DNA from: an uncultured bacterium
GTDB taxonomy: Bacteria; Fidelibacterota; UBA2242
NCBI GenBank assembly: GCA_964588795.1
Contig: CAZPQN010000003.1
Coordinates: 18,639 to 82,638 of the forward strand
Reading direction: 5' to 3'
DNA length: 64,000 bases
Below, piece after piece: positions 20,963 through 52,930 of the stretch. The stretch's first letter is position 1. Each line of letters starts with the position of its first letter. The notes beneath the pieces were generated by a model. It searched no databases and was not told the origin of the DNA. It was given only the letters and a program-made list of their open reading frames with translations. The position numbers and the translations under genes were made by a program.

Positions 20963-20976
20963 GGTTTCCTCCTTGG

Positions 20977-23697: not shown

Positions 23698-23721
23698 AAT
23701 GCCCCCATCAGTAAGTCTATT

Positions 23722-27048: not shown

Positions 27049-27416
27049 TACTTATCAGAAATATTTACGGTTTCGGGTATCGTCGTAAGGCAGTTGGTAC
27101 AGCGGACCTTGTTCGGGGTGCTCGCCTCACTAAAAACCTTATATTCGCCCCGGCAATGTGGACAATACCGGGTCTCCGTCATTAAATCCCACCTTTTAAA
27201 AACCGTAATTGCTCCCGGTTCGGGACAATTGTAGAAGCACACGCCACATCCGGTACAGCCTTCGCCTTTGTAGGTGGATGGATGATAGCTGTGCGTATTA
27301 AAGCGTTCGGTCAGGTACAGCACCTTGACCGGACAGGACTCGATGCAGAGTTCACAGCCTTTGCATTCTTCGGCATTGATAACGACATGTCCTCTGGTTT
27401 TCACATCACTCATATT
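27048..27416 (-). CDS. 2-oxoacid:ferredoxin oxidoreductase delta subunit (2x[4Fe-4S] ferredoxin)
   Basis: [12 protein letters not shown] and [12 protein letters not shown] motifs; likely start at internal Met MSDVKTRG (track ORF to 27506 overlaps the upstream aminotransferase by 70 nt). Confidence 0.75.
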
Positions 27417-27435
27417 GTGCTCCGTCACTAACTTA

Positions 27436-28640: not shown

Positions 28641-30083
28641 TTAAATGTCAAAGGACCACTGACCGGTTTGTAAATATTCGTCAATGGCTTGGGCGGCAGA
28701 GCGGCCCGCGCCCATAGCCAGAATTACCGTCGCCCCACCGGTAACAATGTCTCCGCCCGCAAATACTCCCGGTTTGGAAGTGCGTCCACTTTCCGGTTCG
28801 GCGAGGATATTGCCCCACTTATTGCACCGCAAATCCGGAGTGGTCTGCGAAATCAACGGATTGGAACCATTTCCAATCGCCATGATCACCAAATCGGTCT
28901 CTATTTCAAATTCTGAACCAGCTATAGGTACAGGGCGGCGTCGGCCGGAAGCGTCCGGCTCTCCGAGCTCCATTCGCAGACAGCGGGCTTTGTGCACCCA
29001 GCCGGTGCCGTCAGCAACAAATTCAATCGGGTTGGTGAGCGTCCGAAAAATGATGCCTTCTTCACGGGCATGGTGCACTTCCTCGATCCGGGCTGGCATT
29101 TCAACTTCCGATCGACGGTAAACGATGGTTGCGGTTTCGGCCCCTAAACGCTTGGCGGTGCGGACAGCGTCCATGGCAGTATTGCCACCGCCAACGACCA
29201 CGACGTTTTTTCCGTGCCTGACGGGCGTATCGGTAGACGGAAACTCATAAGCGCGCATCAGATTGACGCGAGTCAGATACTCATTGGCCGAGTAAACCCC
29301 CATCAGGTTTTCCCCGGGAATATTCATAAACCAGGGCAAACCCGCCCCAACTCCCAAAAATACCGCCTGATAGCCACCTGTGGTAAGCAATTCGTCAATC
29401 GTCATGGTCTTGCCTACGATAAAATTGGCGACGAATTCCACCCCCATCTGCCGCAGGTTATTGATTTCGAAGCGCAGGATCTTCTTCGGCAGGCGAAATT
29501 CCGGAATGCCATAAACCAGCACTCCCCCGAACTCATGTAAAGCCTCAAAAACCGTGACCGCATGTCCTCGTTGCACCAAATCGCTGGCACAAGCCAAACC
29601 CGCCGGACCGCTACCCACGACAGCAACCTTTTTTCCCGTCAGTTTGGCATTCTTGGGAAATGCAGTAGCTGAATTTTGCTGGCGTTCATAGTCTGCGACA
29701 AAGCGCTCTAATCGACCGATGGCCACCGGTTCGAACTTACCTTTCAGGATACAGGTTTTCTCACACTGTTCCTCCTGTGGGCATACGCGCCCGCAGACAG
29801 CTGGCAGCAGGTTATCCTCCTTGATTTTACGGGCGGCACCTAAGAAATCACGCACGGCAATCAGCTGGATAAATGCGGGTATTTTAATGCGCACGGGACA
29901 GCCATCAATACAAGTCGATTTGGGACAATTCAGGCACCGCTGCGCTTCCCGGACGGCGGTCTCAACGTCAAATCCAAGATTCACTTCCTCGAAATTGCGA
30001 TTGCGGATCTGCGGCGGCTGTTCCGGCATTTTTTGACGGGGGATTGCGAGACGCTCTTTTTTACTCAAAATCTGGTTCGCCAC
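28641..30083 (-). CDS. nfnB: NfnB/SudA-type glutamate-synthase-small-subunit-like oxidoreductase (2x[4Fe-4S], FAD, NAD(P)H)
   Basis: Cys clusters CLNCPKSTCIDGCP / CGRVCPQEEQCEKTC, dinucleotide fold VAVVGSGPAGLACA and VVVVGGGNTAMD. Confidence 0.7.
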   Translation of the reverse strand: MANQILSKKERLAIPRQKMPEQPPQIRNRNFEEVNLGFDVETAVREAQRCLNCPKSTCIDGCPVRIKIPAFIQLIAVRDFLGAARKIKEDNLLPAVCGRVCPQEEQCEKTCILKGKFEPVAIGRLERFVADYERQQNSATAFPKNAKLTGKKVAVVGSGPAGLACASDLVQRGHAVTVFEALHEFGGVLVYGIPEFRLPKKILRFEINNLRQMGVEFVANFIVGKTMTIDELLTTGGYQAVFLGVGAGLPWFMNIPGENLMGVYSANEYLTRVNLMRAYEFPSTDTPVRHGKNVVVVGGGNTAMDAVRTAKRLGAETATIVYRRSEVEMPARIEEVHHAREEGIIFRTLTNPIEFVADGTGWVHKARCLRMELGEPDASGRRRPVPIAGSEFEIETDLVIMAIGNGSNPLISQTTPDLRCNKWGNILAEPESGRTSKPGVFAGGDIVTGGATVILAMGAGRSAAQAIDEYLQTGQWSFDI

Positions 30084-30091
30084 GATTGCCT

Positions 30092-30970
30092 CTATTCTTC
30101 TGCCTGCGGATTAAGCTGTTCACTCAGGCGACAATGATGTACTGGTGGAGGAGTCTGCTCAAACTCCTGCAAGGCCTGGGCTTCAAATTCCACAAACTGA
30201 CGCTGGCGCCGACCAATTTCCGCAAAGTCGACCTGATGACCGTCGAACTCCGGTCCATCAACACAAACGAACACCGTTTTATCGGCTACCGTCGCGCGGC
30301 AGCCCCCGCACATACCCGTTCCATCCACCATAATGCTGTTAAGCGAAACCATAGTCTTAATCCCGAAGGGACGGGTCTGCTCCGCTACCGCCGCCATCAT
30401 CGGCAAGGGACCGACAGCCAGAATAAAATCCGGCCTGTGTCGTTGGAGCAAATCCTGCAACACTTGTGTGACAAAACCTTTGATCCCGTAACTGCCGTCG
30501 TCGGTTGAGATGAGCACCTCGTCACAGACAGCCCGCATCTCGGATTCACAAATAATCAGTTCTCTCTGCCGGGCACCGACAATGGCGATGACCTGATTCC
30601 CGGCCTGTTTCAGTGCTTTAGCGATGGGTAAAGCTTCCGCGGTGCCCACCCCCCCGCTCACGCAGACTGTCAACCCAAATTTATCAATATGCGTCGGTCG
30701 TCCCAGTGGGCCGACTAAATCGTGTATGTAATCGCCGGCTGATAATAAATTTAAATGCCGCGTAGTTTTCCCGATCCCCTGGACAATCAGTGTTATGGTA
30801 CCCTGCGCGGGATCGCCATCCACAATCGTCAGGGGAATGCGTTCCCCTTTTTCCCAGACACGCAGAATGACAAATTGCCCGGGCTGGCGTTTGCGGGCAA
30901 TCAGCGGCGCCTCAACGATAAATTTTTTAATCTGCGGTGCGATAAATTCAGCCGTGATAATTTGATGCAA
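30092..30970 (-). CDS. nfnA: NfnA/SudB-type FAD- and [2Fe-2S]-containing electron-transfer subunit (PyrK-like)
   Basis: Ferredoxin-NADP-reductase-like fold with C-terminal CGGCRATVADKTVFVCVDGPEF cluster; adjacent to GltD-like partner. Confidence 0.65.
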   Translation of the reverse strand: MHQIITAEFIAPQIKKFIVEAPLIARKRQPGQFVILRVWEKGERIPLTIVDGDPAQGTITLIVQGIGKTTRHLNLLSAGDYIHDLVGPLGRPTHIDKFGLTVCVSGGVGTAEALPIAKALKQAGNQVIAIVGARQRELIICESEMRAVCDEVLISTDDGSYGIKGFVTQVLQDLLQRHRPDFILAVGPLPMMAAVAEQTRPFGIKTMVSLNSIMVDGTGMCGGCRATVADKTVFVCVDGPEFDGHQVDFAEIGRRQRQFVEFEAQALQEFEQTPPPVHHCRLSEQLNPQAEE

Positions 30971-37820: not shown

Positions 37821-38690
37821 TTGCATAAAATATTCCTGCGAATTTTTCAAGTAGTCGTAATTCTGCTGATCCTGGGCTTGGCAAGCAGTACGTTTCTGCC
37901 GCCAAGTTCCCACTGCCCGGATTGCCCGCCGGCGCTTCGTTTGCTACTGCCTGATCGTTTTTATGATTCTCCTCTGCATGCCAGCCTGTGGCTTGTGCTT
38001 GCGGTAAGCATGATCATAGCGGTGATTTTCCGGGGCCTCCGCACTGCTTCCCAGAAGATTCTGCACCTTTTGTTGGCGCTGATTTTTTTAACGATTTTCT
38101 TCGAAAAAAGCACGAACCGCCGGTTTTTTATGACCATCAAAGAGGGACAGGCTGTGAACTTATCCGATGTTATCCATTCCAGCACGCCAGAATATAATTT
38201 GCAGTTGCGGCTCCTGCGTTTTGAGCTCGAACGCCACCCCGACGGCCTGCGTCCCAAAGCCTTCAACAGTCATCTGCTAATCGAAGGACACAAGCCCGCA
38301 ACCGTTTCGATCAACCGCCCACTGGCAATCGGACGTTACCGGCTCTATCAAAATGCCTATCATGAAGTTCCGACCTTCAAATTCCTGGTTGCAGAAGATA
38401 CCCTGATTGCCGCAGTAGGTGATACTGTCAAGTGGAATGAACACCGGATTTGGTTCGATAATTACGACCTCCATGAGCCGAGTCTGCGGGTGTATTGGGA
38501 TGGCATTCCCAACCATGTTTCACTCAGTGGGGAATTTACGGCAGACCGAATGCGCATCCGCGTAACGCCGGGGCCATTTATTTATGCCAGTATCATTGAG
38601 GTTGTCGAAGTCGCCGGGACTGCTTTTCTACTCTTTGTCAGCTTGTTGTATCTGGTTGCACTGGTCAATGTATTCTGGTGGAATCGCTGA
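37821..38690 (+). CDS. short ResB/CcsB-like cytochrome c biogenesis membrane protein
   Basis: N-terminal TM, hydrophilic middle, C-terminal TM; directly upstream of ccsA; only 289 aa (canonical ResB is larger). Confidence 0.4.
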   Translation: MHKIFLRIFQVVVILLILGLASSTFLPPSSHCPDCPPALRLLLPDRFYDSPLHASLWLVLAVSMIIAVIFRGLRTASQKILHLLLALIFLTIFFEKSTNRRFFMTIKEGQAVNLSDVIHSSTPEYNLQLRLLRFELERHPDGLRPKAFNSHLLIEGHKPATVSINRPLAIGRYRLYQNAYHEVPTFKFLVAEDTLIAAVGDTVKWNEHRIWFDNYDLHEPSLRVYWDGIPNHVSLSGEFTADRMRIRVTPGPFIYASIIEVVEVAGTAFLLFVSLLYLVALVNVFWWNR

Positions 38691-38705
38691 AGTAAGGTTA
38701 TTGTT

Positions 38706-39470
38706 ATGGAAAAAATCGGTTTATATACCGCTCTTATTCTATACCTAATCGCGTTCGTGTTGCTAATTACTCAGAGCCGATGGCGCAGTTGGGGTATAGC
38801 GATTTCTCTATCCGTGCTTACTCATATGGGGGCCTTGGTTGTGCGCTCTCTCTCCGCCAACCATCCTCCCTTCACCAACCTTTACGAAACCTTACTTTTA
38901 CTCTCGTTGCTGATTGCTCTGCGGCTTCTTTTCTGGCAGAAGCAAATTGAATCACGATACCGGTGGCTGGTACTGCTGACAGGCATTATCTGTCTGGGAA
39001 CTGCATTATTACTACCTGCCCACTTCAGCGTCAGCAGACCGCTCATGCCTGCACTGAATAGTTTCTGGATGTATATCCATGTACCGGCATATTTTTTCGG
39101 ATATATGGCATTGATTCTGGCTTTTCTATTTGCGCTGATTTTCCTCGGCACTGGAAAAAACGAAAGCGCCCCGGAAATCGCCAGTCTGCTGCGCAAACTC
39201 CACAACGAGGTCAAAATTGCCTTCCTGTTCCTGAATATCGGTCTGGTGACTGGCGCCTTCTGGGCTTACTTCAGCTGGGGCAATTACTGGTCCTGGGATC
39301 CTAAAGAAGTCTGGGCCTTGATCGATGTCCTCGTTCTGGGAATTTATTTTCATCTGCTCAAGCCGCGGGGCACCAAAAAGGTGTGGATCGTTTTACTGGC
39401 TTTTCTATGTATGCTGTTCACCTACTTTGGCGTCTCCTTCATTCTAAGCGGACTACATTCTTATGCTTGA
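38706..39470 (+). CDS. ccsA: cytochrome c biogenesis heme-handling protein CcsA/ResC (system II)
   Basis: WWD domain FWAYFSWGNYWSWDPKEVWALID, conserved His-containing TM helices, 254 aa. Confidence 0.8.
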   Translation: MEKIGLYTALILYLIAFVLLITQSRWRSWGIAISLSVLTHMGALVVRSLSANHPPFTNLYETLLLLSLLIALRLLFWQKQIESRYRWLVLLTGIICLGTALLLPAHFSVSRPLMPALNSFWMYIHVPAYFFGYMALILAFLFALIFLGTGKNESAPEIASLLRKLHNEVKIAFLFLNIGLVTGAFWAYFSWGNYWSWDPKEVWALIDVLVLGIYFHLLKPRGTKKVWIVLLAFLCMLFTYFGVSFILSGLHSYA

Positions 39471-43172: not shown

Positions 43173-44576
43173 ATGAACAATAACCACATTTTAGCCGATT
43201 CGCATATCGGTCGCCTGCTCATAAAGCTCTCGCTTCCCGCTACGATCGGTATGCTCGTCATGGCGCTTTATAATATTGTTGACACAATATTCGTGGGACA
43301 CGGCGTTGGTTCCCTGGCGATTGCCGGTTTGACGATTGTCTTTCCGATTCAAATGATTGTAATGGCGGTTGCTATGATGGTTGGTATGGGCGCCGCCTCC
43401 ATTATTTCCCGCGCCCTGGGAGCGAATGATATAGCACGCGCAAACCAAACTTTGGGCAATGTTCTGCTGATCGTCGTGAGTTTAGGAATCGTCGTGGCAG
43501 TGGGTGGAAATTTGTGCATCGATGTCCTCCTGAAAATTTTCGGCGCTACTCCGGCGATTCTGCCCTATGCCCGGGATTATGCTCGCATCATCTTAGCAGG
43601 CACCATGCTTTTTGCTTTCGCGATGACGGCCAATGCCGTGGTCAGAGCCGAAGGACGGGCGACTATCGCCATGACTACAATGATAGTCTCTTCCGTGCTG
43701 AATATCATTCTCGATGCGGTTTTTATTTTCGGCTTTGGCTGGGGTATCCGGGGCGCGGCAGTGGCGACTGTCGTTTCGCAGCTGACTACCGATCTGTATT
43801 TGCTTGGTTTTTTTGTGCGCGGCAAAGGTTCCTTAAAAATCTGTCGTGTCGGATTCCGGCCGAATTTCAAAATAATCCGGGAGATGGTGGCAGTCGGTTC
43901 CTCGGCTTTCGTGCGCCAGATATCCGGCAGTTTGATTGCTGTGATCGTCAATAATACCCTCAAGTTTTACGGCGGAGAATTGTCAATAGCCGTCTACGGC
44001 ATCGTCAATCGGATTCTTATGTTTGTTTTCATGCCCATCTTTGGCATCGCCCAGGGCGTTCAGCCGATCGTCGGCTATAACTATGGTGCCCGCCGCTATG
44101 CTCAAGCTCTGCGCGTATTGCATCTCGGGATGGTCTGCACCACGCTGATCGCGGTAGCCGGAGCGTTTTATCTGGAAATCTTCCCAGCGCAGATCTTCTC
44201 CTTTTTTACCAATGATCAACAGCTCATCAAATTGGGAGTGCGGGCCATCCGCATCATCAACATCGGCACTGCTTTGATTGGATTCCAGGTCATTGCCACC
44301 ACATTATTCCAATCGCTGGGCATGGCTCGTAAGGCCCTCTACCTGACTGTCGCCCGACAATTGGTCCTAATCCCCCTGGTAATCTTTCTGCCAATCCCTT
44401 TCCAGCTGAATGGCGTCTGGTGCGCCTTCCCCCTGAGCGATCTGCTCTTCTTCTTCGTCAGCTGGGGTATGTACCGACCGCAAGTCCACAACCTGAAAAA
44501 GATGCACCTGCACCCGGAACTATCGGTCATCGCCGCGCATGAAGTAACGCCATCGGCGCATTTTAATAGGATCTGA
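43173..44576 (+). CDS. MATE family efflux transporter
   Basis: 12 TM, 467 aa, twin 6-TM repeats with MATE-typical loops. Confidence 0.85.
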   Translation: MNNNHILADSHIGRLLIKLSLPATIGMLVMALYNIVDTIFVGHGVGSLAIAGLTIVFPIQMIVMAVAMMVGMGAASIISRALGANDIARANQTLGNVLLIVVSLGIVVAVGGNLCIDVLLKIFGATPAILPYARDYARIILAGTMLFAFAMTANAVVRAEGRATIAMTTMIVSSVLNIILDAVFIFGFGWGIRGAAVATVVSQLTTDLYLLGFFVRGKGSLKICRVGFRPNFKIIREMVAVGSSAFVRQISGSLIAVIVNNTLKFYGGELSIAVYGIVNRILMFVFMPIFGIAQGVQPIVGYNYGARRYAQALRVLHLGMVCTTLIAVAGAFYLEIFPAQIFSFFTNDQQLIKLGVRAIRIINIGTALIGFQVIATTLFQSLGMARKALYLTVARQLVLIPLVIFLPIPFQLNGVWCAFPLSDLLFFFVSWGMYRPQVHNLKKMHLHPELSVIAAHEVTPSAHFNRI

Positions 44577-44630
44577 AAGGCACTTTTCGGAAATTTTCAC
44601 CACGTTTAGAAAATTCATTAGGAGGAAAAT

Positions 44631-45107
44631 TTGAATACCCTGATTGTTTATACCACGCATCATGGTTGCGCCGCCTTCTGTGCTGAAAAATTAGCCCAAC
44701 GACTGAATCCGCCCGTCACAACGCTCGACCTTAAAAAACAGCGTGTCCCGGACCTCGCCGGTTTTGAGGCAATCATCATCGGTGGGTCAATCCACGCCGG
44801 ACGCCTACAAAAAATCGTGCGCCGTTTCTGCGAGCAGAACCAGGCCATCCTGACCCAGAAAAAAATCGGCTTGTTTCTGTGTTGCATGGAGGAAGGCGAT
44901 AAAGCCCGCCTGCAATTTGAAACAGCGTTTCCGTCTCAGCTGCGGCAACAGGCCGTCGCTACGGGACTATTCGGCGGCGCCTTTGATTTCCAGAAGATGA
45001 ACTGGCTGGAACGCGCCATAATTAAAAAAATCTCCGGGCTCACTGACAGCGTCACCAAGATTAACGAGAGTGCCATCAGCGAGTTCGCCCGGACATTCAA
45101 TCAATAA
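44631..45107 (+). CDS. flavodoxin-like fold protein (Flavodoxin_5/HemG-like)
   Basis: TTG start after AGGAGG; N-terminal LIVYTTHHGCAAFCAEKLAQRL typical flavodoxin beta1-loop; 158 aa. Confidence 0.55.
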   Translation: MNTLIVYTTHHGCAAFCAEKLAQRLNPPVTTLDLKKQRVPDLAGFEAIIIGGSIHAGRLQKIVRRFCEQNQAILTQKKIGLFLCCMEEGDKARLQFETAFPSQLRQQAVATGLFGGAFDFQKMNWLERAIIKKISGLTDSVTKINESAISEFARTFNQ

Positions 45108-45122
45108 ACCAAGGACGGCTTT

Positions 45123-45506
45123 ATGCGTTTCAATTTTCTATTTGGCTGGTTGTTCCTGATTTGCCTGAGCCTTATTCAATGTAAACCAATCCAGGAATAC
45201 CAGCGACGAATGGCCGCTATCGAGATTACCGAGATTGACTTAAACAAAGTCAAAGACGGTGAATATACGGGTGAATATGACGCGGTAGCTGTTCATGCGG
45301 TCGTTTCGGTTACCGTCAAAAACCACACGATTACCGACATTCGGCTCCTTAAGCACGAAAACGGACGGGGTTCCGCGGCGGAGGTAATACCTAATCGCGT
45401 CATTGAAAAACAATCCCTGCTGGTAGACACCGTGACCAAAGCCACTTCCAGCAGTAAGGTCATCCTTGAAGCAATCGAACAAGCCCTGCGCAAAGGACTG
45501 GATTAA
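45123..45506 (+). CDS. secreted/lipoprotein FMN-binding (FMN_bind) domain protein
   Basis: Signal peptide MRFNFLFGWLFLICLSLIQC; C-terminal VDTVTKATSSSKVILEAIEQAL resembles the flavinylation motif region of FMN_bind domains. Confidence 0.55.
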   Translation: MRFNFLFGWLFLICLSLIQCKPIQEYQRRMAAIEITEIDLNKVKDGEYTGEYDAVAVHAVVSVTVKNHTITDIRLLKHENGRGSAAEVIPNRVIEKQSLLVDTVTKATSSSKVILEAIEQALRKGLD

Positions 45507-45547
45507 CAGCAGATTGCCTGCCCGGGAGAAAAATCCGGGGCCTCGCC

Positions 45548-46660
45548 TTGGTTCATAACGAACTATTTACCTCCCTACTGATCTATTACCAGAGCGGAAC
45601 GGGCAACTCTTACCGCGCCGCAGTCTGGATGGCCAGAACAGCCCAGGAAAAAGGCTTACCTGCCACCCTGATCCCACTCGAACTGAGTGAGCCCGGAAAG
45701 GAATTAAAAAATGACCGGCGAGCGTTAATCGGCTTTGTCATGCCGACTCACGGCTTTACTGCTCCCTGGAGCATGATCAAATTTATCCTGCGCCTGCCAA
45801 AAGGGCGCCACCTCCCGGCCTTCTGTCTGGCTACGCAGGGACAATTGAAATGCGGTCCGGTTCTTATCCCGGGACTAAGCGCCACGGCAACTTTCCTCTC
45901 CGCTTTCCTGCTATATGTTAAAGGTTTTCACGTACGCGGCGTCGAGAGCATCAACATGCCTTCCAACTGGATGAGCCTGCATCCCGCGCAAAAACCGCAT
46001 TCCATTCGCACGATCGTCAATCGCGGCCAGCCCCGTGCGGAATATTTTATTACCCGCCTGCTCAATGGCAAAATCAATTGGCTCACTGCAAGTAATTTGG
46101 TGGAGTTCATCGGTGGTTTGATCTTGCTACCGGTCGCCTGTGGCTACCTGCTTTTCGGCAAAACCGGCATGGCCAAAATCTATTTTGCGAATAACGCCTG
46201 CAATGGTTGCGGTCGATGTGCCGAAATTTGCGCACAAAAGGCTATCATCATGAAAAACTCCCTTCATCCCCGTCCTTTCTGGACTTACCGCTGTGAAAGC
46301 TGTATGCGCTGTATGGCTTTTTGCCCTCAAACCGCGATCGAAGTAAATCAACCGTGGGTGATCGGGCTTTTTTTCTATATCGTCATGCCGTTGAGTACCT
46401 GGTTGGCGATCCGGGTTGTGAATTTCGCCCAGCTTCCGTACTGGTGGAACATTTTTATTTATGGTGTTGTTTATCTTGTTACTTACCTGAGCTCGGTCGC
46501 GGTATCGTACCTAATCCTTTTTGGGCTTACCCAATTTAAAAGGCTGAATGCTATGCTGACCCACACGACTTTTTCACATTACTATCGCCGGTACCGGGAA
46601 CCTGCTACACAGGTAAACGACCTCACCCGTAAGCAGGTTTTTCAGGCGCCGCGGAAGTAA
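45548..46660 (+). CDS. membrane-anchored flavodoxin-like + 2x[4Fe-4S] ferredoxin protein (EFR1-family-like)
   Basis: N-terminal LIYYQSGTGNSYRAA flavodoxin-like; CNGCGRCAEICAQKAI and CESCMRCMAFCPQTAI clusters; C-terminal TM helices. Confidence 0.6.
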   Translation: MVHNELFTSLLIYYQSGTGNSYRAAVWMARTAQEKGLPATLIPLELSEPGKELKNDRRALIGFVMPTHGFTAPWSMIKFILRLPKGRHLPAFCLATQGQLKCGPVLIPGLSATATFLSAFLLYVKGFHVRGVESINMPSNWMSLHPAQKPHSIRTIVNRGQPRAEYFITRLLNGKINWLTASNLVEFIGGLILLPVACGYLLFGKTGMAKIYFANNACNGCGRCAEICAQKAIIMKNSLHPRPFWTYRCESCMRCMAFCPQTAIEVNQPWVIGLFFYIVMPLSTWLAIRVVNFAQLPYWWNIFIYGVVYLVTYLSSVAVSYLILFGLTQFKRLNAMLTHTTFSHYYRRYREPATQVNDLTRKQVFQAPRK

Positions 46661-47647
46661 CTATTTGCCAGCGGTAAGCACCCTCAATTGTTGCTGATTA
46701 ACGTTCAGCAGTCCCACCGCCTGGATGCGTTCGGTCAGGATGCGCCAGTTGTTGTCCCGCTGAAACACTTCCTGGAAAATGCGCTGGGCTTCGTCCAGTT
46801 TACCAATGTTGGCCAATGAAACGGCATGCCAGTAGCGCATTTCCAAGTTTTCCGGAAAAAGTTGCTCGGCCAACCCGTATTCCCGCAGGGCGGTGATTTC
46901 GTCCCGGCGCTCAATCGCCAAATCCCCGGCGTTCATATGTTTATAAGCCTGGTCAACCCGCAAAAGACGTCGCAATTCTTTGACCGGGTCTGGATGATCT
47001 TCGATGCGCAGGTCAATCAGCCGGTCTTCCCAGATGCGGCCCGTAGGCTGAGCACGAACAACCAACAACGCCGCTGATTGCCGACCGCGAATATCGCCGC
47101 CCGCCGCTTCCGCGGCTTCGAGTGCGGTCAGCATTCTTTCTGCCAGTGAACCCCTGGCGGATTGGAAAGCCGCGTGCATCGCCGGCCAGACTGTCGCCTG
47201 CAACATCATATTCGCCTGAACGGAAAAACCTTCCCCAGTGTTGTGCCCGGCACAGGCAATGCACTGGGCACCGGTCCAGGCGGCTACTCGACCACCCGCA
47301 TCCACGATTGCCAACTGCCGATAGTCACGCCCGTCATCGCCTGCGATCAATAATTGCAGAACTTCATCAGCTTTCTTGCCGGCTTTGAGATACTGCAACC
47401 CTTCCGGCCCGAAGGCGGGATTGACCAATGACTGAGTCGCGATGACCCCGACGCCGGCCTCCGCCCAGGAAACAATAGTACCCACCGAAAACCAATGACT
47501 CTGCACCGCCACTCCCATTTCACCTGTTTCCGTATCTCTTGCTACGACAGAATAAGTATGCATCAGGGGGCCCGGCCGGGACTGAGCCGCCGCATTGATG
47601 AGCGACATAGCAATCACGCTCCAGATTACAAACATTGGTTTGGTCAT
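46661..47647 (-). CDS. secreted DUF1028 family (Ntn-hydrolase-like) protein with C-terminal TPR-like region
   Basis: Signal peptide then HTYSVVARDTETGEMGVAVQSHWFSVG matching the DUF1028 T(F/Y)SIVARD N-terminus; C-terminal helical repeats. Confidence 0.65.
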   Translation of the reverse strand: MTKPMFVIWSVIAMSLINAAAQSRPGPLMHTYSVVARDTETGEMGVAVQSHWFSVGTIVSWAEAGVGVIATQSLVNPAFGPEGLQYLKAGKKADEVLQLLIAGDDGRDYRQLAIVDAGGRVAAWTGAQCIACAGHNTGEGFSVQANMMLQATVWPAMHAAFQSARGSLAERMLTALEAAEAAGGDIRGRQSAALLVVRAQPTGRIWEDRLIDLRIEDHPDPVKELRRLLRVDQAYKHMNAGDLAIERRDEITALREYGLAEQLFPENLEMRYWHAVSLANIGKLDEAQRIFQEVFQRDNNWRILTERIQAVGLLNVNQQQLRVLTAGK

Positions 47648-47820: not shown

Positions 47821-49005
47821 TTGTATATTTGGCGATTTTTTTCTAATCTGTCAGCAGACATGCAGACGACTAGGACACATTATCAGAGGTACCGATTAAT
47901 TGGCTCGTTGTTATTCCAGATGGGAATCGCCGGTAGCGTGATTGGTCAGGGTCAGACCAACCCGGCAAGTACCTGGGATTTTCGCGGACAGTTGGAACTG
48001 AGTGGCAGTCTGAGCCGTTATCAGCAGATCTGGTCGAGACGGGGAACCGCCCGGTATCTGCCATCAATCGAATACCAGCACCAATTGTCAGAGGCCAGGA
48101 CTCTCGGCGCGGATTTCTCTGTCATCCTGTTCGCGGATAGTATAAAAAAACCTGCCCCCGAAAACGTTGATCTCTACCGTCTGAGCTTCCGCTATGCGAC
48201 TCCCCAAAGTGAATGGCAGTTCGGTTTGCAGAAAATCAATTTTGGACCGGCTCAGATTCTGCGTTCCTTGATGTGGTTCGACCGCCTTGATATTCGGGAT
48301 CCGCTGAAAGCTACCACCGGCGTCTGGGGACTACGCTGGCGCTATAATTACCTGAATAATGCCAACGCCTGGCTATGGGTGCTCTATGGCAACGACGGTA
48401 CCAAAGGGATGGAAACGGTGCCGACAGCGCAAGGTCGCCCGGAACTCGGCGGTCGTTTTCAAATTCCAGTACGCTCCGGCGAAGTGGCGATGACAATACA
48501 TCAACGGGCGCTTGCCCAGCCCTTCGATAAGGATGAAACCCGGGTGGCCTTCGACGGACGCTGGGATTTCATCTTGGGCTGGTGGCTCGAAGCAGTCTGG
48601 CATAATAATAGCCCGGACCTCAAATATGCGGTCACCGGGGGAGTGGATTACACCTTCGGAATTGGCAATGGCCTTTATACCATACTCGAGCATAAAACCA
48701 ATTTTTTCCCAACCAGCAATCGCTTTCCTGAAATGAATCTGACCGGGCTGACCCATTGGCACGGCTACGATCTGCTTAAGGTCTCTGCATTGATGCTCAC
48801 TTACCCTCTGACGCTGTTCGATAACCTGGTGGCGGTAGGTTATTATTCATGGGCTACGAATGAGTTTTTCGAATATTTGGGCTGGCAGAGAACCTTCGAC
48901 AGAGTGATTATTAACCTGAGCTTTTTTAATTACCCTGGACCGACACTGGCTACGGGAAAAATGGCTGGTTCTGGCGCCCAGCTTATGTTAATTTACAATC
49001 ATTGA
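47821..49005 (+). CDS. putative outer-membrane beta-barrel protein (start uncertain)
   Basis: No cytoplasmic motif; alternating aromatic/hydrophilic pattern; loosely resembles ORF 18729..20207; upstream of Lol-like ABC operon. Confidence 0.35.
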   Translation: MYIWRFFSNLSADMQTTRTHYQRYRLIGSLLFQMGIAGSVIGQGQTNPASTWDFRGQLELSGSLSRYQQIWSRRGTARYLPSIEYQHQLSEARTLGADFSVILFADSIKKPAPENVDLYRLSFRYATPQSEWQFGLQKINFGPAQILRSLMWFDRLDIRDPLKATTGVWGLRWRYNYLNNANAWLWVLYGNDGTKGMETVPTAQGRPELGGRFQIPVRSGEVAMTIHQRALAQPFDKDETRVAFDGRWDFILGWWLEAVWHNNSPDLKYAVTGGVDYTFGIGNGLYTILEHKTNFFPTSNRFPEMNLTGLTHWHGYDLLKVSALMLTYPLTLFDNLVAVGYYSWATNEFFEYLGWQRTFDRVIINLSFFNYPGPTLATGKMAGSGAQLMLIYNH

Positions 49006-49031: not shown

Positions 49032-49733
49032 ATGCACAACTCGGCAATTATCACAATCCAGAATCTGGTTAAAGACTATCCCATAGGTGGCGGTTCATTC
49101 CGGGCGTTGAGCGACATCAGTCTGCAAATCGGTCAAGGTGAATTTATCGGTTTGGTCGGCCCGAGTGGCAGCGGCAAAACAACTTTGCTGAATATCATTG
49201 GTGCACTTGATAATCCCACCGCGGGACATACCGAAGTCCTGGGACATACCATCGAGAACCTCAGCCACCGGCAGGCCGCACGGTTGCGCAACTCCTATCT
49301 CGGATTTATTTTCCAGACCTATAACCTGTTGCCCGTGTACAATGTTTACGAAAACGTGGAATTTCCGTTGCTATTATTGAAAAAGAGTCAAAATGAACGT
49401 CGGGAACTGACTCTGCGCGCTCTGGAATGGGTGGGCTTGACCGATAAAATCAAGTCCCGTCCGGCTCAACTCTCCGGTGGGGAGTGCCAGCGCGTCGCCA
49501 TTGCCCGGGCTATGGTCAAGCAACCCCAGGTCGTGTTGGCCGATGAACCGACCGCCAACTTGGACGCCGCCAATTCCCACCACATCTTGCAGACCATGGC
49601 GAAGCTCAACACCGAGCTCAAAACGACCTTTATCTTCGCGACCCATGATGACAAGGTCATCGGCTACCTGCGCCGCAAAGTCAGTCTGGCGGATGGTCAC
49701 GTGATAAAAGACGAAAACATCGTACAATCCTGA
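49032..49733 (+). CDS. ABC transporter ATP-binding protein, LolD/MacB-type
   Basis: Walker A GPSGSGKTT, signature LSGGECQRVAIARA, Walker B VVLADEPT, 233 aa. Confidence 0.85.
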   Translation: MHNSAIITIQNLVKDYPIGGGSFRALSDISLQIGQGEFIGLVGPSGSGKTTLLNIIGALDNPTAGHTEVLGHTIENLSHRQAARLRNSYLGFIFQTYNLLPVYNVYENVEFPLLLLKKSQNERRELTLRALEWVGLTDKIKSRPAQLSGGECQRVAIARAMVKQPQVVLADEPTANLDAANSHHILQTMAKLNTELKTTFIFATHDDKVIGYLRRKVSLADGHVIKDENIVQS

Positions 49734-49746
49734 ACAGGAGAGTAGC

Positions 49747-50919
49747 ATGTTAGCATTAAAACTTGCTTTCCGCAACCTGATGGGCGCCCGTTTGCGCACC
49801 TGGTTGAATGTATTTGTACTATCCCTGGCTTTCGTCTTAGTTATCTGGTTCAAAGGAGTACTGAACGGCTGGGACCGCCAGGCGCGCCGTGAAACGATTA
49901 ACTGGCAAATCGGTGGCGGGCAGTACTGGCAAGAGAATTACGACCCTTACGACCCTTTCACAATTGAAGATAGCCACGCGCTTTTGACCGATTCGATCCA
50001 AAAAGAAATCGGACAGGGACATCTGACCCCCATGCTGATCAGTCAGGCGACGATCTACCCGCAGGGACGCATCCAGAATGTCAAATTGCAGGGCGTTGAT
50101 CCAAATCAGAAAATCCTCGCCCTGCCTTCCGAGTATCTGAACACGACGGACGGTGGCATTCCGGCGATGATTGGCGAACGCACCGCCCGCAACAGTAAAT
50201 TGTCCATTGGGGACTTTGTCACCATCCGCTGGCGGGACGCCAATGGAACTTTCGACGCCGATGAAATCCGTATCGTGCACATCTTCAAAACTGACGTGGG
50301 TACGATGGATATGGGGGTCGTATGGATTCCCTTGAAAAAGCATCAGGAAATGATGCGCCTGTCCAACTCCGCGACTATCCTTACCACCGCTCAGGAAGCC
50401 GGTTTTCGGGGGCCATTCACCGGCTGGGATTTTAAGGATCATGCCTATCTGTTAAAAGAAATTGAAGCTATGATCGAGACCAAGTCAATCGGTGGTATAG
50501 TCATGTTCCTGTTTCTGATGTCGCTGGCGATGCTGGCGATTTTTGATACTCAGGTATTATCTATTTTCCGACGCCAGAAAGAAATCGGCACGCAAATCGC
50601 CCTGGGTATGACCCGCCCTCAGGTCGTGACCCTGTTTACCATTGAAGGAGCGATGCATTCCGTTTTTGCCGCAATCTTAGCCGCAATTTACGGTGCGCCG
50701 CTACTGGCTCTGCAAGCCAAAGTCGGTTGGAAGATGCCCGCCGGAACCGACGATTTCGGTCTGACCATTTCCGAAACGATCTACCCGGCTTACTCGGTAG
50801 GATTGGTGCTGGGCACAACCCTTTTGGTGATGATCACCACGACTATTGTCAGTTATCTTCCCGCCCGCCGGATTGCGAAGATGAATCCGACCGATGCCAT
50901 CAGAGGAAAAATCCAATGA
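49747..50919 (+). CDS. ABC transporter permease, FtsX/LolC/LolE family
   Basis: N-terminal LALKLAFRNLMGARLRTWLN; TM1, large periplasmic domain, 3 C-terminal TMs. Confidence 0.75.
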   Translation: MLALKLAFRNLMGARLRTWLNVFVLSLAFVLVIWFKGVLNGWDRQARRETINWQIGGGQYWQENYDPYDPFTIEDSHALLTDSIQKEIGQGHLTPMLISQATIYPQGRIQNVKLQGVDPNQKILALPSEYLNTTDGGIPAMIGERTARNSKLSIGDFVTIRWRDANGTFDADEIRIVHIFKTDVGTMDMGVVWIPLKKHQEMMRLSNSATILTTAQEAGFRGPFTGWDFKDHAYLLKEIEAMIETKSIGGIVMFLFLMSLAMLAIFDTQVLSIFRRQKEIGTQIALGMTRPQVVTLFTIEGAMHSVFAAILAAIYGAPLLALQAKVGWKMPAGTDDFGLTISETIYPAYSVGLVLGTTLLVMITTTIVSYLPARRIAKMNPTDAIRGKIQ

Positions 50920-52190
50920 TCAAGTTTATCTTACGCGGTTTGTTACGCGATCGGCACCGTAGTTTGTTTCCATTCCTGATTGTGACGTTGGGAGTCTGGA
51001 TTGCGGTCTTCATGCAAGCCTATATGAATGGCGTCCTGTCAGATATGGTTGATTATAACGCCCGTTATGCCACCGGACATGTCAAGGTCATGAGCCGGGC
51101 TTATGCTGAAAATGTCGATCAACTCCCCAATGACTTAGCCTTGACCGGCGTCTCGAATCTCATGCAAAGACTCCAGCAGGAATACCCCGATATGACCTGG
51201 GTCAGACGTATCCAGTTCGGTGGATTACTGGACATTCCCGATGATAATGGAGAAACCCGGGCACAATGCATGGTCATCGGGATGGGCGTGGATTTACTGA
51301 GTCCCGCAAGTTCGGAAATCAACACCCTCAATATCGGCAATTCGCTCGTGTCCGGACGCATGCCACGCGAAGCGGGCGAAATTCTGGTCAGCGTGGACAT
51401 GGCGGAAAAACTGGGCGTTCAGCCCGGCGAAGTCGCCACGCTTTTGTCCTCCAGTATGTACGGCAGTATGGTTATTTACAATTTTAGCGTGGTCGGCACT
51501 CTTCGATTTGGGGTGCAGATGATGGATCGGGGTGCAATGATCGCGGATGTGACTGACGTGCAGGCAGCACTCGACATGCAGGACGCCGCCGGTGAAATTA
51601 TCGGTTATCTGCCGAATCGTGTCTATGATGATTTGGCCTGTCAGGACATCGTCCGCAAATTCAACGCGGGATATGAGCGGGATACGAGTGAGTTTGCACC
51701 GGTCATGGGCACTCTGAAGGAAATAAGCAATTTGGGTGGCTACCTCGATATGGCTTCCAGCTTCTCAAGTATCATCGTGGCGGTCTTCATGATGGTAATG
51801 TCGGTGGTGCTCTGGAACGCCGGACTTTTAGGCGGCTTGCGACGCTATGGCGAAGTCGGCGTGCGCTTAGCCATTGGTGAGAACAAGAGCCATATTTTCC
51901 GCACGATGATTTACGAGTCAATGGCTATCGGGCTATTTGGTTCGATTACTGGAACAGTCTTTGGTCTGGGCTGCGCTTACTGGATGCAGGTCAAGGGATT
52001 GGACATCAGCAATCTGATGAAAAATGTCAATATGATGATCCCTACTATTTTTCGCGCCCGAATCACCCCGACGACCTACTACATCGGCTTTTTCCCTGGC
52101 CTGCTGGCCACGGTGTTGGGTACGGCTCTGGCTGGCATCGGCATTTACCGGCGGCAGACAGCCTCATTATTCAAGGAGTTGGAAGCATGA
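50916..52190 (+). CDS. ABC transporter permease, FtsX/LolC/LolE family (second copy)
   Basis: ATGA overlap with upstream permease stop; MIKFILRGLLRDRHRSLFPFLIVTLGVWIAVF; same topology. Confidence 0.75.
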   Translation: MIKFILRGLLRDRHRSLFPFLIVTLGVWIAVFMQAYMNGVLSDMVDYNARYATGHVKVMSRAYAENVDQLPNDLALTGVSNLMQRLQQEYPDMTWVRRIQFGGLLDIPDDNGETRAQCMVIGMGVDLLSPASSEINTLNIGNSLVSGRMPREAGEILVSVDMAEKLGVQPGEVATLLSSSMYGSMVIYNFSVVGTLRFGVQMMDRGAMIADVTDVQAALDMQDAAGEIIGYLPNRVYDDLACQDIVRKFNAGYERDTSEFAPVMGTLKEISNLGGYLDMASSFSSIIVAVFMMVMSVVLWNAGLLGGLRRYGEVGVRLAIGENKSHIFRTMIYESMAIGLFGSITGTVFGLGCAYWMQVKGLDISNLMKNVNMMIPTIFRARITPTTYYIGFFPGLLATVLGTALAGIGIYRRQTASLFKELEA

Positions 52191-52930
52191 AAATCGTAAC
52201 GGGTGGTTTAGTACTTTGCCTTTTAGTACAGTTCCCCACCGCTCAGACTCTTAGCGGGCGGGAAATCCTGGACCGGGTCGATCAAAACCGCATCGTGGGA
52301 CAGGCCATCAGCGTGACCACGATGATCATTCACGGACGCAGTGGTACCAGAACCATCCAGGCGCGTGCCTGGAGCGATGGCACCGAAAAAGCCTTCGTGG
52401 AGTACCTTTCGCCCGCTCGTGAAAAAGGCAAAAAAATGCTGAAACTGGCCAAACAGCTCTGGATTTACACTCCGGAACCAAATGACCGGATCATCGCCAT
52501 CTCCGGTCACCTTTTGCGGCAATCCGTGATGGGCTCTGACCTATCTTACGAAGATATGCTTGAAAATGACATCTTACAGGATCAGTACGAAGCCCGTGTG
52601 TTGGGACAGGAAACACTGCATGATCGGCAATGCTATTTACTCGAGTTGACAGCACGCATGGACAACATCGCCTACCATTCCCGCAAAATCTGGGTCGACA
52701 GCGAACGCTATTTGCCATTGAAAGAAAATCGCTATGCCCGCGGGGGTAAACTGCTGAAAACTACCACCGTGCATTCCGTATTTCAGGTTGACGGGCACTG
52801 GTTGCCGAAGAAGATGACATTCCGCGATATGCTGTCGAGCGGCGGCGGCACGGAATATATCATTGACTCGCTTGATTTCAAGGTTAACATCCCCGATTAC
52901 CAGTTTACCAAAGCCGCTCTGCGCAAATAG
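52187..52930 (+). CDS. LolA-like periplasmic protein (paralog of 20219..20962)
   Basis: ATGA overlap with permease stop (translational coupling); signal peptide; shares ...SDLSYEDM... block with the other copy. Confidence 0.55.
   Translation: MKIVTGGLVLCLLVQFPTAQTLSGREILDRVDQNRIVGQAISVTTMIIHGRSGTRTIQARAWSDGTEKAFVEYLSPAREKGKKMLKLAKQLWIYTPEPNDRIIAISGHLLRQSVMGSDLSYEDMLENDILQDQYEARVLGQETLHDRQCYLLELTARMDNIAYHSRKIWVDSERYLPLKENRYARGGKLLKTTTVHSVFQVDGHWLPKKMTFRDMLSSGGGTEYIIDSLDFKVNIPDYQFTKAALRK

What the first reader, a model, noticed from the sequence alone, without database searches (positions are those of the whole stretch)
43173..46660. MATE transporter followed by flavodoxin-like / extracytoplasmic FMN_bind / membrane flavodoxin-ferredoxin trio
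Four same-strand genes have 15-54 nt spacers. The trio pairs a cytoplasmic flavodoxin-fold protein, a secreted (signal peptide, possible lipoprotein) FMN-binding-domain protein and a membrane-anchored protein carrying a flavodoxin-like module plus two [4Fe-4S] clusters. That is the minimal parts list for moving electrons across the membrane to an extracytoplasmic flavoprotein, reminiscent in logic of flavin-based extracellular electron transfer systems but with different components.
Basis: partly seen in the sequence, partly recalled or inferred. Interest (0 to 1): 0.5.

Follow-up and report, generated by a model that had tools for sequence, protein, structure and literature searches.

The report
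Flavodoxin–FMN lipoprotein pair plus unrelated neighbour
The four genes are real and correctly described, but only the small flavodoxin-like gene and the exported FMN-binding lipoprotein gene travel together in other genomes, so the membrane flavodoxin-ferredoxin gene is a neighbour in this genome only and the proposed three-part electron bridge across the membrane is not supported.

Summary
Observation confirmed. Four same-strand ORFs lie at 43173-46660 with 54, 15 and 41 nt spacers. They encode a MATE transporter, a Flavodoxin_5 protein ("Fld5"), an FMN_bind protein with a lipoprotein signal, and an EFR1-family flavodoxin + 2x[4Fe-4S] protein with hydrophobic C-terminal helices.

In 12 independent loci carrying the small FMN_bind family, a Flavodoxin_5 gene sits immediately upstream in 8. 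An EFR1-like gene is adjacent only in this window. Two syntenic relatives (L017, L028) keep rubrerythrin-MscS-GNAT-MATE-Fld5-FMN_bind but lack EFR1. Ten of 11 EFR1-anchored loci lack both partners.

The EFR1-like protein most likely has both redox domains in the cytoplasm. Its transmembrane hairpin has no conserved cofactor ligands, so it cannot carry electrons across the membrane by itself. No ApbE gene lies in the 64 kb window.

The conserved unit is therefore a two-gene module: a cytoplasmic HemG-like flavodoxin-fold protein plus an exported, probably flavinylated lipoprotein (invariant Thr108). I did not find this module described in the papers I searched or read. Its function is inferred, not shown. 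Modest interest.

The parts
43173..44576 (+). MATE-family efflux transporter (467 aa). Conserved upstream of the pair only within one synteny block (window, L017, L028).
   Evidence: PF01554 1e-52; TIGR00797 218 bits against a cutoff of 147; YeeO family only 38 bits against a cutoff of 465. Synteny.
44631..45107 (+). Fld5: cytoplasmic Flavodoxin_5-family (HemG-like fold) protein, 158 aa, with no signal peptide. First gene of the conserved pair.
   Evidence: PF12724 104 bits. HemG model NF008316 50 bits against a cutoff of 142. 20% identity to E. coli HemG in the multiple alignment and no BLASTP hit. No hydrophobic segment.
45123..45506 (+). Small FMN_bind-domain lipoprotein, 127 aa. Second gene of the conserved pair.
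   Evidence: PF04205 36 bits. The AF2 model (pLDDT 84) best matches 3O6U, 8P2B and 8P2A, which are FMN_bind domains. Family alignments.
45123..45182 (+). Signal peptide ending in the lipobox-like L-I-Q-C20.
   Evidence: Hydrophobic segment at residues 3-23. A Cys at the equivalent position in all ~40 closest homologues, usually followed by Lys.
45426..45446 (+). Flavinylation-type motif D102-T-V-T-K-A-T108. Thr108 is the predicted FMN attachment site. Lys106 replaces the canonical Gly.
   Evidence: T108 in 115/115, D102 in 114/115 and A107 in 115/115 family members. Position 106 is G in 89 and K in 26. Motif definition D-x-x-[S/T]-G-A-[S/T] from PMC12052999.
45548..46660 (+). EFR1-family protein, 370 aa: flavodoxin domain + 2x[4Fe-4S] ferredoxin domain + C-terminal transmembrane hairpin + conserved basic tail. 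Not a conserved partner of the pair.
   Evidence: NF038196 111 bits against a cutoff of 75. 2311 homologues, the top 120 nearly all full length. AF2 pLDDT 93.3, pTM 0.91.
45593..45610 (+). S16-G-T-G-N-S21, a flavodoxin-type FMN phosphate-binding loop.
46088..46180 (+). Hydrophobic helix 181-211, kinked near the conserved Pro195. Inferred to be interfacial or re-entrant rather than membrane-spanning.
   Evidence: DSSP H181-192 + H194-211. Hydropathy peak at 184-202. Conserved face L193, S197, Y200, G204, L208. It lies inside the region matched by the 242-position EFR1 model.
46199..46324 (+). Two [4Fe-4S] binding motifs: C218/C221/C224/C228 and C249/C252/C255/C259.
   Evidence: Seven of the eight Cys are invariant and C259 is >=90% conserved in 117 sequences. 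All eight are invariant in the 22-sequence alignment. Fer4 Pfam families.
46355..46531 (+). Transmembrane helical hairpin (residues 270-294 and 298-328) with a 3-8 residue connecting loop that lacks Lys/Arg.
   Evidence: No conserved His or Cys in these helices.
46532..46657 (+). Conserved basic C-terminal tail (T-T-x-T-H-x-Y-R-R-Y-R-E-P) with 9 Lys/Arg in 40 residues. Predicted cytoplasmic.

Best explanation
The four-gene run is a composite.

Its conserved core is a two-gene module. The first gene encodes a cytoplasmic Flavodoxin_5 (HemG-like fold) protein. A 15-nt spacer separates it from the second gene, which encodes a small exported, lipid-anchored FMN_bind protein. That protein is most likely flavinylated by ApbE on Thr108 and works as a periplasmic one-flavin electron carrier.

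In this lineage the module lies at the end of a conserved block: rubrerythrin-MscS-GNAT-MATE-Fld5-FMN_bind. The EFR1-family gene sits just past the point where synteny breaks. It is a widely distributed gene with no recurring redox neighbour of its own. It encodes a cytoplasm-facing flavodoxin-ferredoxin fusion tethered by a cofactor-less transmembrane hairpin.

The EFR1-like protein is therefore not a dedicated transmembrane wire for the pair. If the pair does exchange electrons across the membrane, the link is most likely the quinone pool, by analogy with HemG, which passes electrons to menaquinone. Alternatively it is a membrane complex encoded elsewhere. The EFR1-like protein could at most feed that pool from ferredoxin.

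Shown: gene identities, the fold of the FMN_bind and EFR1-like proteins, motif conservation, export signals, and which genes co-occur.
Inferred: flavinylation, EFR1 topology, quinone coupling, and direction of electron flow.
For: Pair conservation. A Flavodoxin_5 gene lies immediately upstream of FMN_bind, on the same strand, with gaps of -13 to +21 nt. This holds in the window, L005, L012, L015, L017, L019, L021 and L028, which is 8 of 12 independent loci. They come from Marinimicrobia/Fidelibacterota-type and probably Firmicutes-type contigs, even though the flavodoxin partner is only 20-24% identical between the two groups.

EFR1 is not a partner.
- L017 and L028 are syntenic with the window (44-69% amino-acid identity over 5-8 genes) but have DUF1028 or a HAD hydrolase directly after FMN_bind.
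- A profile HMM of the FMN_bind family hits only L005 among the 11 EFR1-anchored loci. There the pair is 6 kb away, in another transcription unit. An EFR1 HMM finds no full-length hit in any FMN_bind- or Fld5-anchored locus.
- Recurrent EFR1 neighbours are PGI, ZIP, DUF362, CoiA_N and Fpg. None is FMN_bind, ApbE or flavodoxin.

FMN_bind is exported. Lipoprotein-type signals occur in the closest ~40 homologues. More distant homologues have an N-terminal anchor helix preceded by Lys/Arg clusters.

Flavinylation site. Thr108 is invariant in 115/115 sequences, within D-x-x-[ST]-[GK]-A-T.

EFR1 topology. There is no signal peptide. The SGTGNS loop starts at residue 16. Fe-S clusters are assembled in the cytoplasm. 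The C-terminal tail is basic. The model (pLDDT 93) shows a two-helix hairpin with no conserved His or Cys.
Against: - All four genes could still be co-transcribed here. Spacers are 15-54 nt and no terminator was found. A local, lineage-specific functional recruitment of EFR1 cannot be excluded.
- In L005 EFR1 lies within 6 kb of the pair, which hints at loose regional linkage.
- The topology of helix 181-211 was not measured. A three-span topology would put the two redox domains on opposite sides of the membrane.
- Fld5 orthologues (about 55% identical) in Aminicenantes and Latescibacterota contigs lack an FMN_bind neighbour. Four FMN_bind loci lack a flavodoxin gene. The pairing is therefore frequent, not obligate.
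- The motif has Lys where Gly is canonical. A Gly-to-Ala change halves flavinylation in a model protein (PMC12052999).
- No ApbE gene lies in the window.
- The context sample is small: 12 + 11 loci. The planned large metagenome scan failed.
Confidence: 0.6

Rival explanations
1. Fld5, the EFR1-like membrane protein and the FMN_bind lipoprotein form one dedicated chain. Electrons pass from the cytoplasmic flavodoxin through the membrane Fe-S/flavin protein to the periplasmic flavoprotein.
For: The genes are adjacent on one strand with 15-41 nt spacers and no predicted terminator. The three proteins have complementary predicted locations. In L005 the EFR1 gene is within 6 kb of the pair. The region 193-267 weakly resembles the C-terminus of NapH (32 bits).
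Against: The trio is found only in this window. Two syntenic genomes lack EFR1 at this site. Ten of 11 EFR1 loci lack the pair, and 11 other FMN_bind or Fld5 loci lack EFR1. The membrane helices carry no conserved cofactor ligands, and both redox domains are best placed in the cytoplasm. The NapH score is far below the cutoff (32 against 213).
Confidence: 0.12
2. Co-regulated flavoprotein substitutes. Fld5 and FMN_bind do not exchange electrons with each other. They are expressed together, for example under iron limitation or oxidative stress, as iron-free replacements for a ferredoxin in the cytoplasm and for a cytochrome or Fe-S carrier in the periplasm.
For: The pair is conserved but no membrane electron conduit is ever encoded beside it. 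Meheust et al. propose that flavinylation-based transfer is advantageous in iron-poor settings, by analogy with the ferredoxin/flavodoxin switch (PMC8238504). Rubrerythrin and a nitroreductase-family gene lie in the same conserved block. The genome uses ferredoxin-dependent enzymes.
Against: No regulator or Fur-type site was examined. The tight spacing and overlaps (-13 to +21 nt) suggest stoichiometric co-production, which is more typical of partners. Flavodoxin_5 proteins are HemG-like rather than classical electron-carrier flavodoxins.
Confidence: 0.13
3. An export or detoxification module. The MATE pump and the pair act together in one of two ways. Either the pump exports FAD or flavin needed for periplasmic flavinylation, as the MATE proteins Bfe and YeeO do. 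Or the flavoproteins reduce a toxic redox-active compound that the pump expels.
For: MATE-Fld5-FMN_bind is kept in three genomes. Other family members lie beside TetR + MFS (L014), TetR + ABC (L018), MacB/FtsX (L021), MFS (L012) and ABC-2 (L019) genes. MATE-family flavin exporters exist (PMC5655446).
Against: The three MATE cases are one synteny block, not independent events. The MATE protein scores 38 bits against a 465-bit cutoff on the YeeO-family model and is closest to generic multidrug MATE models. L005, L015, L023 and L024 have no nearby pump. Enrichment was not tested statistically.
Confidence: 0.12
4. Pure chance. The four genes are functionally unrelated neighbours.
For: Every gene belongs to a large, common family. 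The flanking genes are unrelated housekeeping or stress genes.
Against: The Fld5-FMN_bind pairing recurs in 8 of 12 loci, across distant lineages and with a divergent flavodoxin partner.
Confidence: 0.03

Closest known systems
ApbE-flavinylated extracytosolic FMN_bind proteins (PplA, NqrC/RnfG, the monomeric CPE2226/3O6U 'FMN-bind1' protein), as surveyed in PMC8238504 and PMC11334425
   Same: Same domain by Pfam and by fold. Export signal or lipidation. Invariant Thr in a D-x-x-[ST]-x-A-T motif. Small single-domain size, like 3O6U.
   Different: No apbE gene and none of the five described membrane apparatuses (NapH-like, MsrQ-like, PepSY-like, DsbD, NQR/RNF-like) is encoded beside it. The recurring partner is a cytoplasmic Flavodoxin_5 protein. 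That partnership did not come up in the passages of those two surveys that I searched. Lys replaces the motif Gly in 26 of 115 members.
HemG, the menaquinone-dependent protoporphyrinogen IX dehydrogenase (Flavodoxin_5 family)
   Same: Same Pfam family and overall flavodoxin-like layout. JGI annotation pipelines call the homologues HemG.
   Different: Scores 50 bits against a 142-bit cutoff. 20% identity to E. coli HemG in the multiple alignment and no BLASTP alignment. 158 aa against 181 aa. It is not a HemG orthologue.
EFR1 family ferrodoxin (NCBIfam NF038196)
   Same: N-terminal flavodoxin domain followed by a 2x[4Fe-4S] domain. Scores above the family cutoff.
   Different: Carries about 100 extra C-terminal residues, a transmembrane hairpin plus a conserved basic tail, that lie outside the 242-position model. 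No member found in the literature search has a studied function.
NapH-like membrane Fe-S proteins of flavinylation clusters
   Same: A membrane protein with two cytoplasmic [4Fe-4S] motifs next to an FMN_bind gene.
   Different: 32 bits against a 213-bit cutoff. Different helix count and order. It has a flavodoxin domain and no co-occurrence with FMN_bind genes.
Listeria flavin-based extracellular electron transfer (Ndh2-DMK-EetA/B-PplA)
   Same: The logic: cytoplasmic flavoenzyme, then quinone, then a lipid-anchored flavinylated FMN_bind protein outside the cell.
   Different: No Ndh2, EetA/B, FmnB or ECF flavin transporter here. The FMN_bind protein has one domain. The quinone link is only inferred.

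Membership tests
FMN_bind (PF04205), ApbE-flavinylated extracytosolic domain | Profile score above the Pfam gathering threshold | tested here: met
   36.2 bits against a cutoff of 22.
FMN_bind (PF04205), ApbE-flavinylated extracytosolic domain | FMN_bind fold | tested here: met
   The AF2 model (pLDDT 83.6) best matches 3O6U, 8P2B and 8P2A, with Foldseek probability 0.99-1.0 and TM 0.5-0.68.
FMN_bind (PF04205), ApbE-flavinylated extracytosolic domain | Flavinylation motif D-x-x-[S/T]-G-A-[S/T] | tested here: inconclusive
   D102, T105, A107 and T108 are present and T108 is invariant in 115/115. Position 106 is Lys, not Gly. The K variant occurs in 26/115 members. Motif from PMC12052999.
FMN_bind (PF04205), ApbE-flavinylated extracytosolic domain | Export signal or lipidation site | tested here: met
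   Hydrophobic N-terminus ending in Cys20. A lipobox-like L-x-x-C is conserved in the closest ~40 homologues. No dedicated signal-peptide predictor was available.
FMN_bind (PF04205), ApbE-flavinylated extracytosolic domain | ApbE flavin transferase encoded in the genome or cluster | tested here: inconclusive
   No PF02424 hit among about 56 ORFs of the 64 kb window, and none called beside the homologues. The rest of the genome is not available.
FMN_bind (PF04205), ApbE-flavinylated extracytosolic domain | Covalently bound FMN | not testable with these tools
   Needs protein expression with ApbE, then UV-SDS-PAGE or mass spectrometry.
Flavinylation-associated transmembrane electron-transfer systems (NapH-like, MsrQ-like, PepSY-like, DsbD, NQR/RNF-like; PMC8238504) | A membrane protein of one of the described classes in the cluster | tested here: not met
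   The EFR1-like protein hits only Fer4 families in Pfam. The NapH model TIGR02163 gives 32 bits against a cutoff of 213.
Flavinylation-associated transmembrane electron-transfer systems (NapH-like, MsrQ-like, PepSY-like, DsbD, NQR/RNF-like; PMC8238504) | Conserved co-localisation of the membrane component with the flavinylated protein | tested here: not met
   EFR1 is adjacent in 1 of 12 FMN_bind loci. FMN_bind is present in 1 of 11 EFR1 loci, and there it is 6 kb away.
EFR1 family ferrodoxin (NF038196) | Score above the NCBIfam cutoff | tested here: met
   111.2 bits against a cutoff of 75. Residues 12-267 match model positions 1-232 of 242.
EFR1 family ferrodoxin (NF038196) | Flavodoxin-fold N-terminal domain with an FMN phosphate loop, plus two 4Fe-4S motifs | tested here: met
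HemG (NF008316) | Equivalog score of at least 142 bits | tested here: not met
   50.1 bits.
HemG (NF008316) | Detectable pairwise similarity to E. coli HemG | tested here: not met
   No BLASTP alignment at E <= 100. 20% identity in the multiple alignment.
MATE flavin exporters (YeeO type) | Score on the EmmdR/YeeO family model NF007562 | tested here: not met
   37.8 bits against a cutoff of 465. The best hit is the generic MATE model PRK09575 at 262 bits. Bfe of Shewanella could not be compared because no sequence was available.

The most novel reading that the evidence does not exclude
The Flavodoxin_5 + single-domain FMN_bind pair is a minimal flavin-only system, not mentioned in the papers I searched. 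It is found in Marinimicrobia/Fidelibacterota and some Firmicutes-like lineages, with FMN_bind as a lipoprotein or as a membrane-anchored protein. It would move electrons between the cytoplasm and the cell envelope through the quinone pool, without any dedicated transmembrane protein. In this genome the membrane-tethered EFR1-type flavodoxin-ferredoxin would have been recruited next to it as a ferredoxin-to-quinone feeder.
Probability: 0.2. Interest if true: 0.6.

Novelty: new variant of a known kind. Interest (0 to 1): 0.3.

Why it matters
Flavinylated envelope proteins are emerging as a widespread alternative to cytochromes for extracytosolic electron transfer. Their described partners are always membrane complexes.

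A recurrent pairing with a small cytoplasmic HemG-like flavodoxin, with no membrane component encoded nearby, would point to a simpler route, possibly mediated by quinones. It occurs in uncultured, abundant marine and sediment lineages (Marinimicrobia/Fidelibacterota).

The analysis also flags a large, uncharacterised, membrane-anchored subfamily of EFR1 flavodoxin-ferredoxin fusions. That subfamily has 2311 detected homologues across many anaerobic phyla and no known function.

Tried and rejected
Context statistics therefore rest on 12 look-ups plus 11 genome loci.
- The afdb50 fold library was unavailable.
- Model coordinates were not exposed. I could not measure the FMN-to-cluster distance or the orientation of helix 181-211.
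- A literature search for 'EFR1' found only a gene-list mention in C. difficile. Searches for Flavodoxin_5/PF12724 and for Marinimicrobia + flavodoxin gave nothing relevant.
- HemG identity for Fld5 was rejected.
- 'SGLT' in Fld5 as a flavinylation site was rejected because it is not conserved.
- A Fld5-FMN_bind fusion (Rosetta-stone test) was absent among the top 120 Fld5 homologues.
- The hairpin in the 41-nt spacer before EFR1 is not significant (z -0.3).
- The EFR1 C-terminal module searched alone gave only 28 weak hits and no new architecture.
- No solved structure covers the EFR1 protein beyond generic Fe-S and flavodoxin domains.

Full report
**1. Observation**

All are on the + strand, separated by 54, 15 and 41 nt.

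Profile searches give the following:
- MatE: PF01554, 1e-52.
- Flavodoxin_5: PF12724, 104 bits against a cutoff of 27.
- FMN_bind: PF04205, 36 bits against a cutoff of 22.
- The last gene: the NCBIfam model NF038196 'EFR1 family ferrodoxin', 111 bits against a cutoff of 75, plus 4Fe-4S families.

Each of the three small proteins has 96-98% identical metagenomic copies and many more distant homologues, so these are real genes. The nearest named relatives are MAGs of Candidatus Marinimicrobia / Neomarinimicrobiota / Fidelibacterota. No terminator-like site separates the four genes. The small hairpin in the spacer before the last gene is not better than shuffled sequence.

**2. The FMN_bind protein**

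An alignment of 115 family members shows an invariant Thr108. It lies within D-x-x-[S/T]-[G/K]-A-T-x-S-S. Asp102 is present in 114/115 and Ala107 in 115/115.

This is the ApbE flavinylation motif D-x-x-[S/T]-G-A-[S/T] (PMC12052999), except that the window protein and 25 others have Lys in place of Gly.

The AF2 model (pLDDT 84) is most similar to 3O6U, which PMC11334425 describes as a flavinylated monomeric FMN-bind1 protein. It is also similar to single domains of multi-flavinylated proteins, 8P2B and 8P2A.

The N-terminus is a hydrophobic segment ending in Cys20. The closest ~40 homologues all end their signal region with L-x-x-C, usually followed by Lys. More distant, Clostridium-type members instead have an uncleaved anchor helix preceded by Lys/Arg clusters. 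Both forms place the domain outside the cytoplasmic membrane. 'Secreted, possible lipoprotein' is therefore supported.

**3. The Flavodoxin_5 protein (Fld5)**

It has no hydrophobic segment or signal.

It belongs to the Pfam family that contains HemG, and JGI pipelines label its homologues HemG. It fails the HemG equivalog model (50 against 142 bits). It is only 20% identical to E. coli HemG in the multiple alignment and gives no BLASTP alignment. It is a HemG-like flavodoxin-fold protein of unknown function.

**4. The EFR1-like protein**

Full-length homologues of about 360-370 aa are numerous: 2311 hits. They occur in Deltaproteobacteria/Thermodesulfobacteriota, Planctomycetota, Omnitrophota, Marinimicrobia and others.

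In 117 sequences, G17, T18, G19 and N20 of the flavodoxin phosphate loop are invariant. Seven of the eight cluster cysteines are invariant and C259 is at least 90% conserved. All eight are invariant in the 22-sequence alignment. The motifs PTHGF.APW and MPSNW..H and a C-terminal T-T-x-T-H-x-Y-R-R-Y-R-E-P tail are also highly conserved.

Three long hydrophobic helices remain: 181-211 (kinked near the conserved Pro195), 270-294 and 298-328. The tail after the last helix has 9 Lys/Arg in 40 residues. The loop between the last two helices has none. The last two helices therefore form an in-out-in hairpin, and the Fe-S domain before them is cytoplasmic. That agrees with the absence of a Tat or Sec signal.

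A three-span topology would then put the 180-residue flavodoxin domain outside the cell with no signal peptide. I regard that as implausible. Helix 181-211 also lies inside the region covered by the 242-position EFR1 model. I therefore infer that it is interfacial or re-entrant.

No His or Cys is conserved in the membrane helices, so they cannot hold a haem or cluster. The protein can deliver electrons to the membrane surface, for instance to a quinone, but cannot conduct them across the membrane.

**5. Is the trio a unit?**

*EFR1 as anchor.* Eleven genome loci were examined (L001-L011). tblastn and profile HMMs find Fld5 and FMN_bind only in L005. There the two genes overlap each other but lie 6 kb from EFR1, which sits between fpg and pgi. 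Families that recur next to EFR1 are PGI, ZIP, DUF362, CoiA_N and Fpg. No FMN_bind, ApbE or flavodoxin family recurs.

*FMN_bind or Fld5 as anchor.* Twelve look-ups gave the following.

| Locus | Arrangement |
|---|---|
| L017 | nitroreductase-rubrerythrin-MscS-GNAT-MATE-Fld5-FMN_bind, then convergent DUF1028 after 5 nt; 44-69% identity to the window; no EFR1 |
| L028/L029 | rubrerythrin-MscS-GNAT-MATE-Fld5-FMN_bind, then a HAD hydrolase |
| L012/L013 | GlnRS-Fld5-FMN_bind |
| L021/L022 | divergent MacB/FtsX, then Fld5-FMN_bind |
| L015/L016 and L019/L020 | a divergent Flavodoxin_5 gene (36 bits against a cutoff of 27; 20-24% identical to the window's) directly upstream of FMN_bind |
| L014 and L018 | TetR-FMN_bind |
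| L023 | FMN_bind alone |
| L024 | FMN_bind overlapping a secreted 523-aa protein |

An EFR1 HMM finds no full-length hit in any of these loci.

So Flavodoxin_5 + FMN_bind is the conserved unit, in 8 of 12 loci with gaps of -13 to +21 nt. MATE is conserved only inside one synteny block. EFR1 lies just beyond the point where that synteny ends.

The pairing is frequent but not obligate. Fld5 orthologues in an Aminicenantes and a Latescibacterota contig have no FMN_bind neighbour. No fused Fld5-FMN_bind protein appears among the top 120 Fld5 homologues.

**6. ApbE**

None of about 56 ORFs across the 64 kb window hits PF02424. None was called next to any homologue. This says nothing about the rest of the genome.

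**7. Mechanism**

*Shown:*
- An exported, lipid-anchored FMN_bind domain with an invariant flavinylation-site Thr.
- A cytoplasmic flavodoxin-fold partner encoded directly upstream.
- No membrane electron conduit encoded with them.
- An EFR1-type protein that is present only here.

*Inferred:*
- The FMN_bind protein carries covalent FMN and acts as a periplasmic electron carrier.
- The Fld5 protein, like HemG, may exchange electrons with menaquinone at the inner face of the membrane. The HemG-menaquinone link is from my own knowledge of HemG and was not tested here. The quinone pool, or a complex encoded elsewhere, would then be the link.
- The EFR1-like protein would be a ferredoxin-side, membrane-tethered oxidoreductase. 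The window also encodes 2-oxoacid:ferredoxin oxidoreductase and NfnAB-like genes, so a ferredoxin pool exists.

*Rivals:*
- Co-regulated iron-free substitutes without direct electron exchange.
- An export or detoxification link with the MATE pump. MATE flavin exporters exist (PMC5655446), but this MATE fails the YeeO model.

**8. Comparison with known systems**

The surveys of flavinylation systems describe five uncharacterised membrane apparatuses, beyond the already characterised systems, and flavinylated extracytosolic Flavodoxin_4 and FMN_red proteins. I found no cytoplasmic Flavodoxin_5 partner in the passages I searched (PMC8238504 and PMC11334425).

All four proteins are members of known families. 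What may be new is the recurrent two-gene arrangement and the long, membrane-anchored form of EFR1.

**9. Verdict**

This is a new variant of a known kind, of modest interest (0.3). The main limitation is the small context sample. The metagenome scan failed.

Noticed in passing
window 24566-27506 (-) and 28641-30970 (-): A 2-oxoacid:ferredoxin oxidoreductase gene set (POR_N; TPP_enzyme_C+POR; a 2x4Fe-4S subunit). Next to it lies an NfnAB/GltD-like pair (Fer4_20+Pyr_redox_2, and DHODB_Fe-S_bind). These indicate a ferredoxin-based anaerobic metabolism.
   Followed up: partly
window 37821-39470 (+): ResB-like and CcsA-like (Cytochrom_C_asm) genes, the system II cytochrome c biogenesis pair, directly upstream of the nitroreductase-rubrerythrin-MscS-GNAT block. 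The same order is seen in L017.
   Followed up: no
window 20219-24405 (-) and 49032-52930 (+): Two transporter clusters that each end with a LolA_like gene. One is MMPL/RND-like + TetR. The other is an ABC ATPase + two FtsX permeases. The listed start of the second FtsX ORF (50727) overlaps the first by 193 nt and is probably too far upstream.
   Followed up: no
window 47821-49005 (+), 18729-20207 (-), 12211-12876 (+), 111-482 (+): Sizeable ORFs (394, 492, 221 and 123 aa) with no Pfam hit. The 394- and 492-aa ORFs also gave nothing at E 0.1.
   Followed up: partly
window 46658-46663: The stop codon of the EFR1-like gene abuts the stop codon of the convergent DUF1028 gene, with a 0-nt gap. No room is left for a terminator on either strand.
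   Followed up: no
window 45438-45440 (Lys106 of the FMN_bind protein); alignment A7: 26 of 115 family members, all among the lipoprotein-type sequences inspected, carry Lys instead of the canonical Gly in the flavinylation motif. This suggests a tolerated or functional variant of the ApbE recognition site.
   Followed up: partly
L014, L018, L021, L012, L019 and window/L017/L028: Efflux or ABC-type transporter genes (MFS+TetR, ABC, MacB/FtsX, ABC-2, MATE) lie within one to three genes of many members of this FMN_bind family. Enrichment was not tested.
   Followed up: no
L026 4628-5056 (+): In an Aminicenantes contig the Fld5 orthologue is followed not by FMN_bind but by a 142-aa protein with 3-4 hydrophobic helices, several His residues and no Pfam hit.
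   Followed up: partly
L002-L006 (EFR1-anchored loci): In Marinimicrobia-type genomes the EFR1-like gene sits in a conserved order: EFR1, pgi, a ZIP transporter, then an ORF of about 1200 aa. A DUF362 gene is often upstream. The window's copy is in a different place, consistent with relocation.
   Followed up: partly
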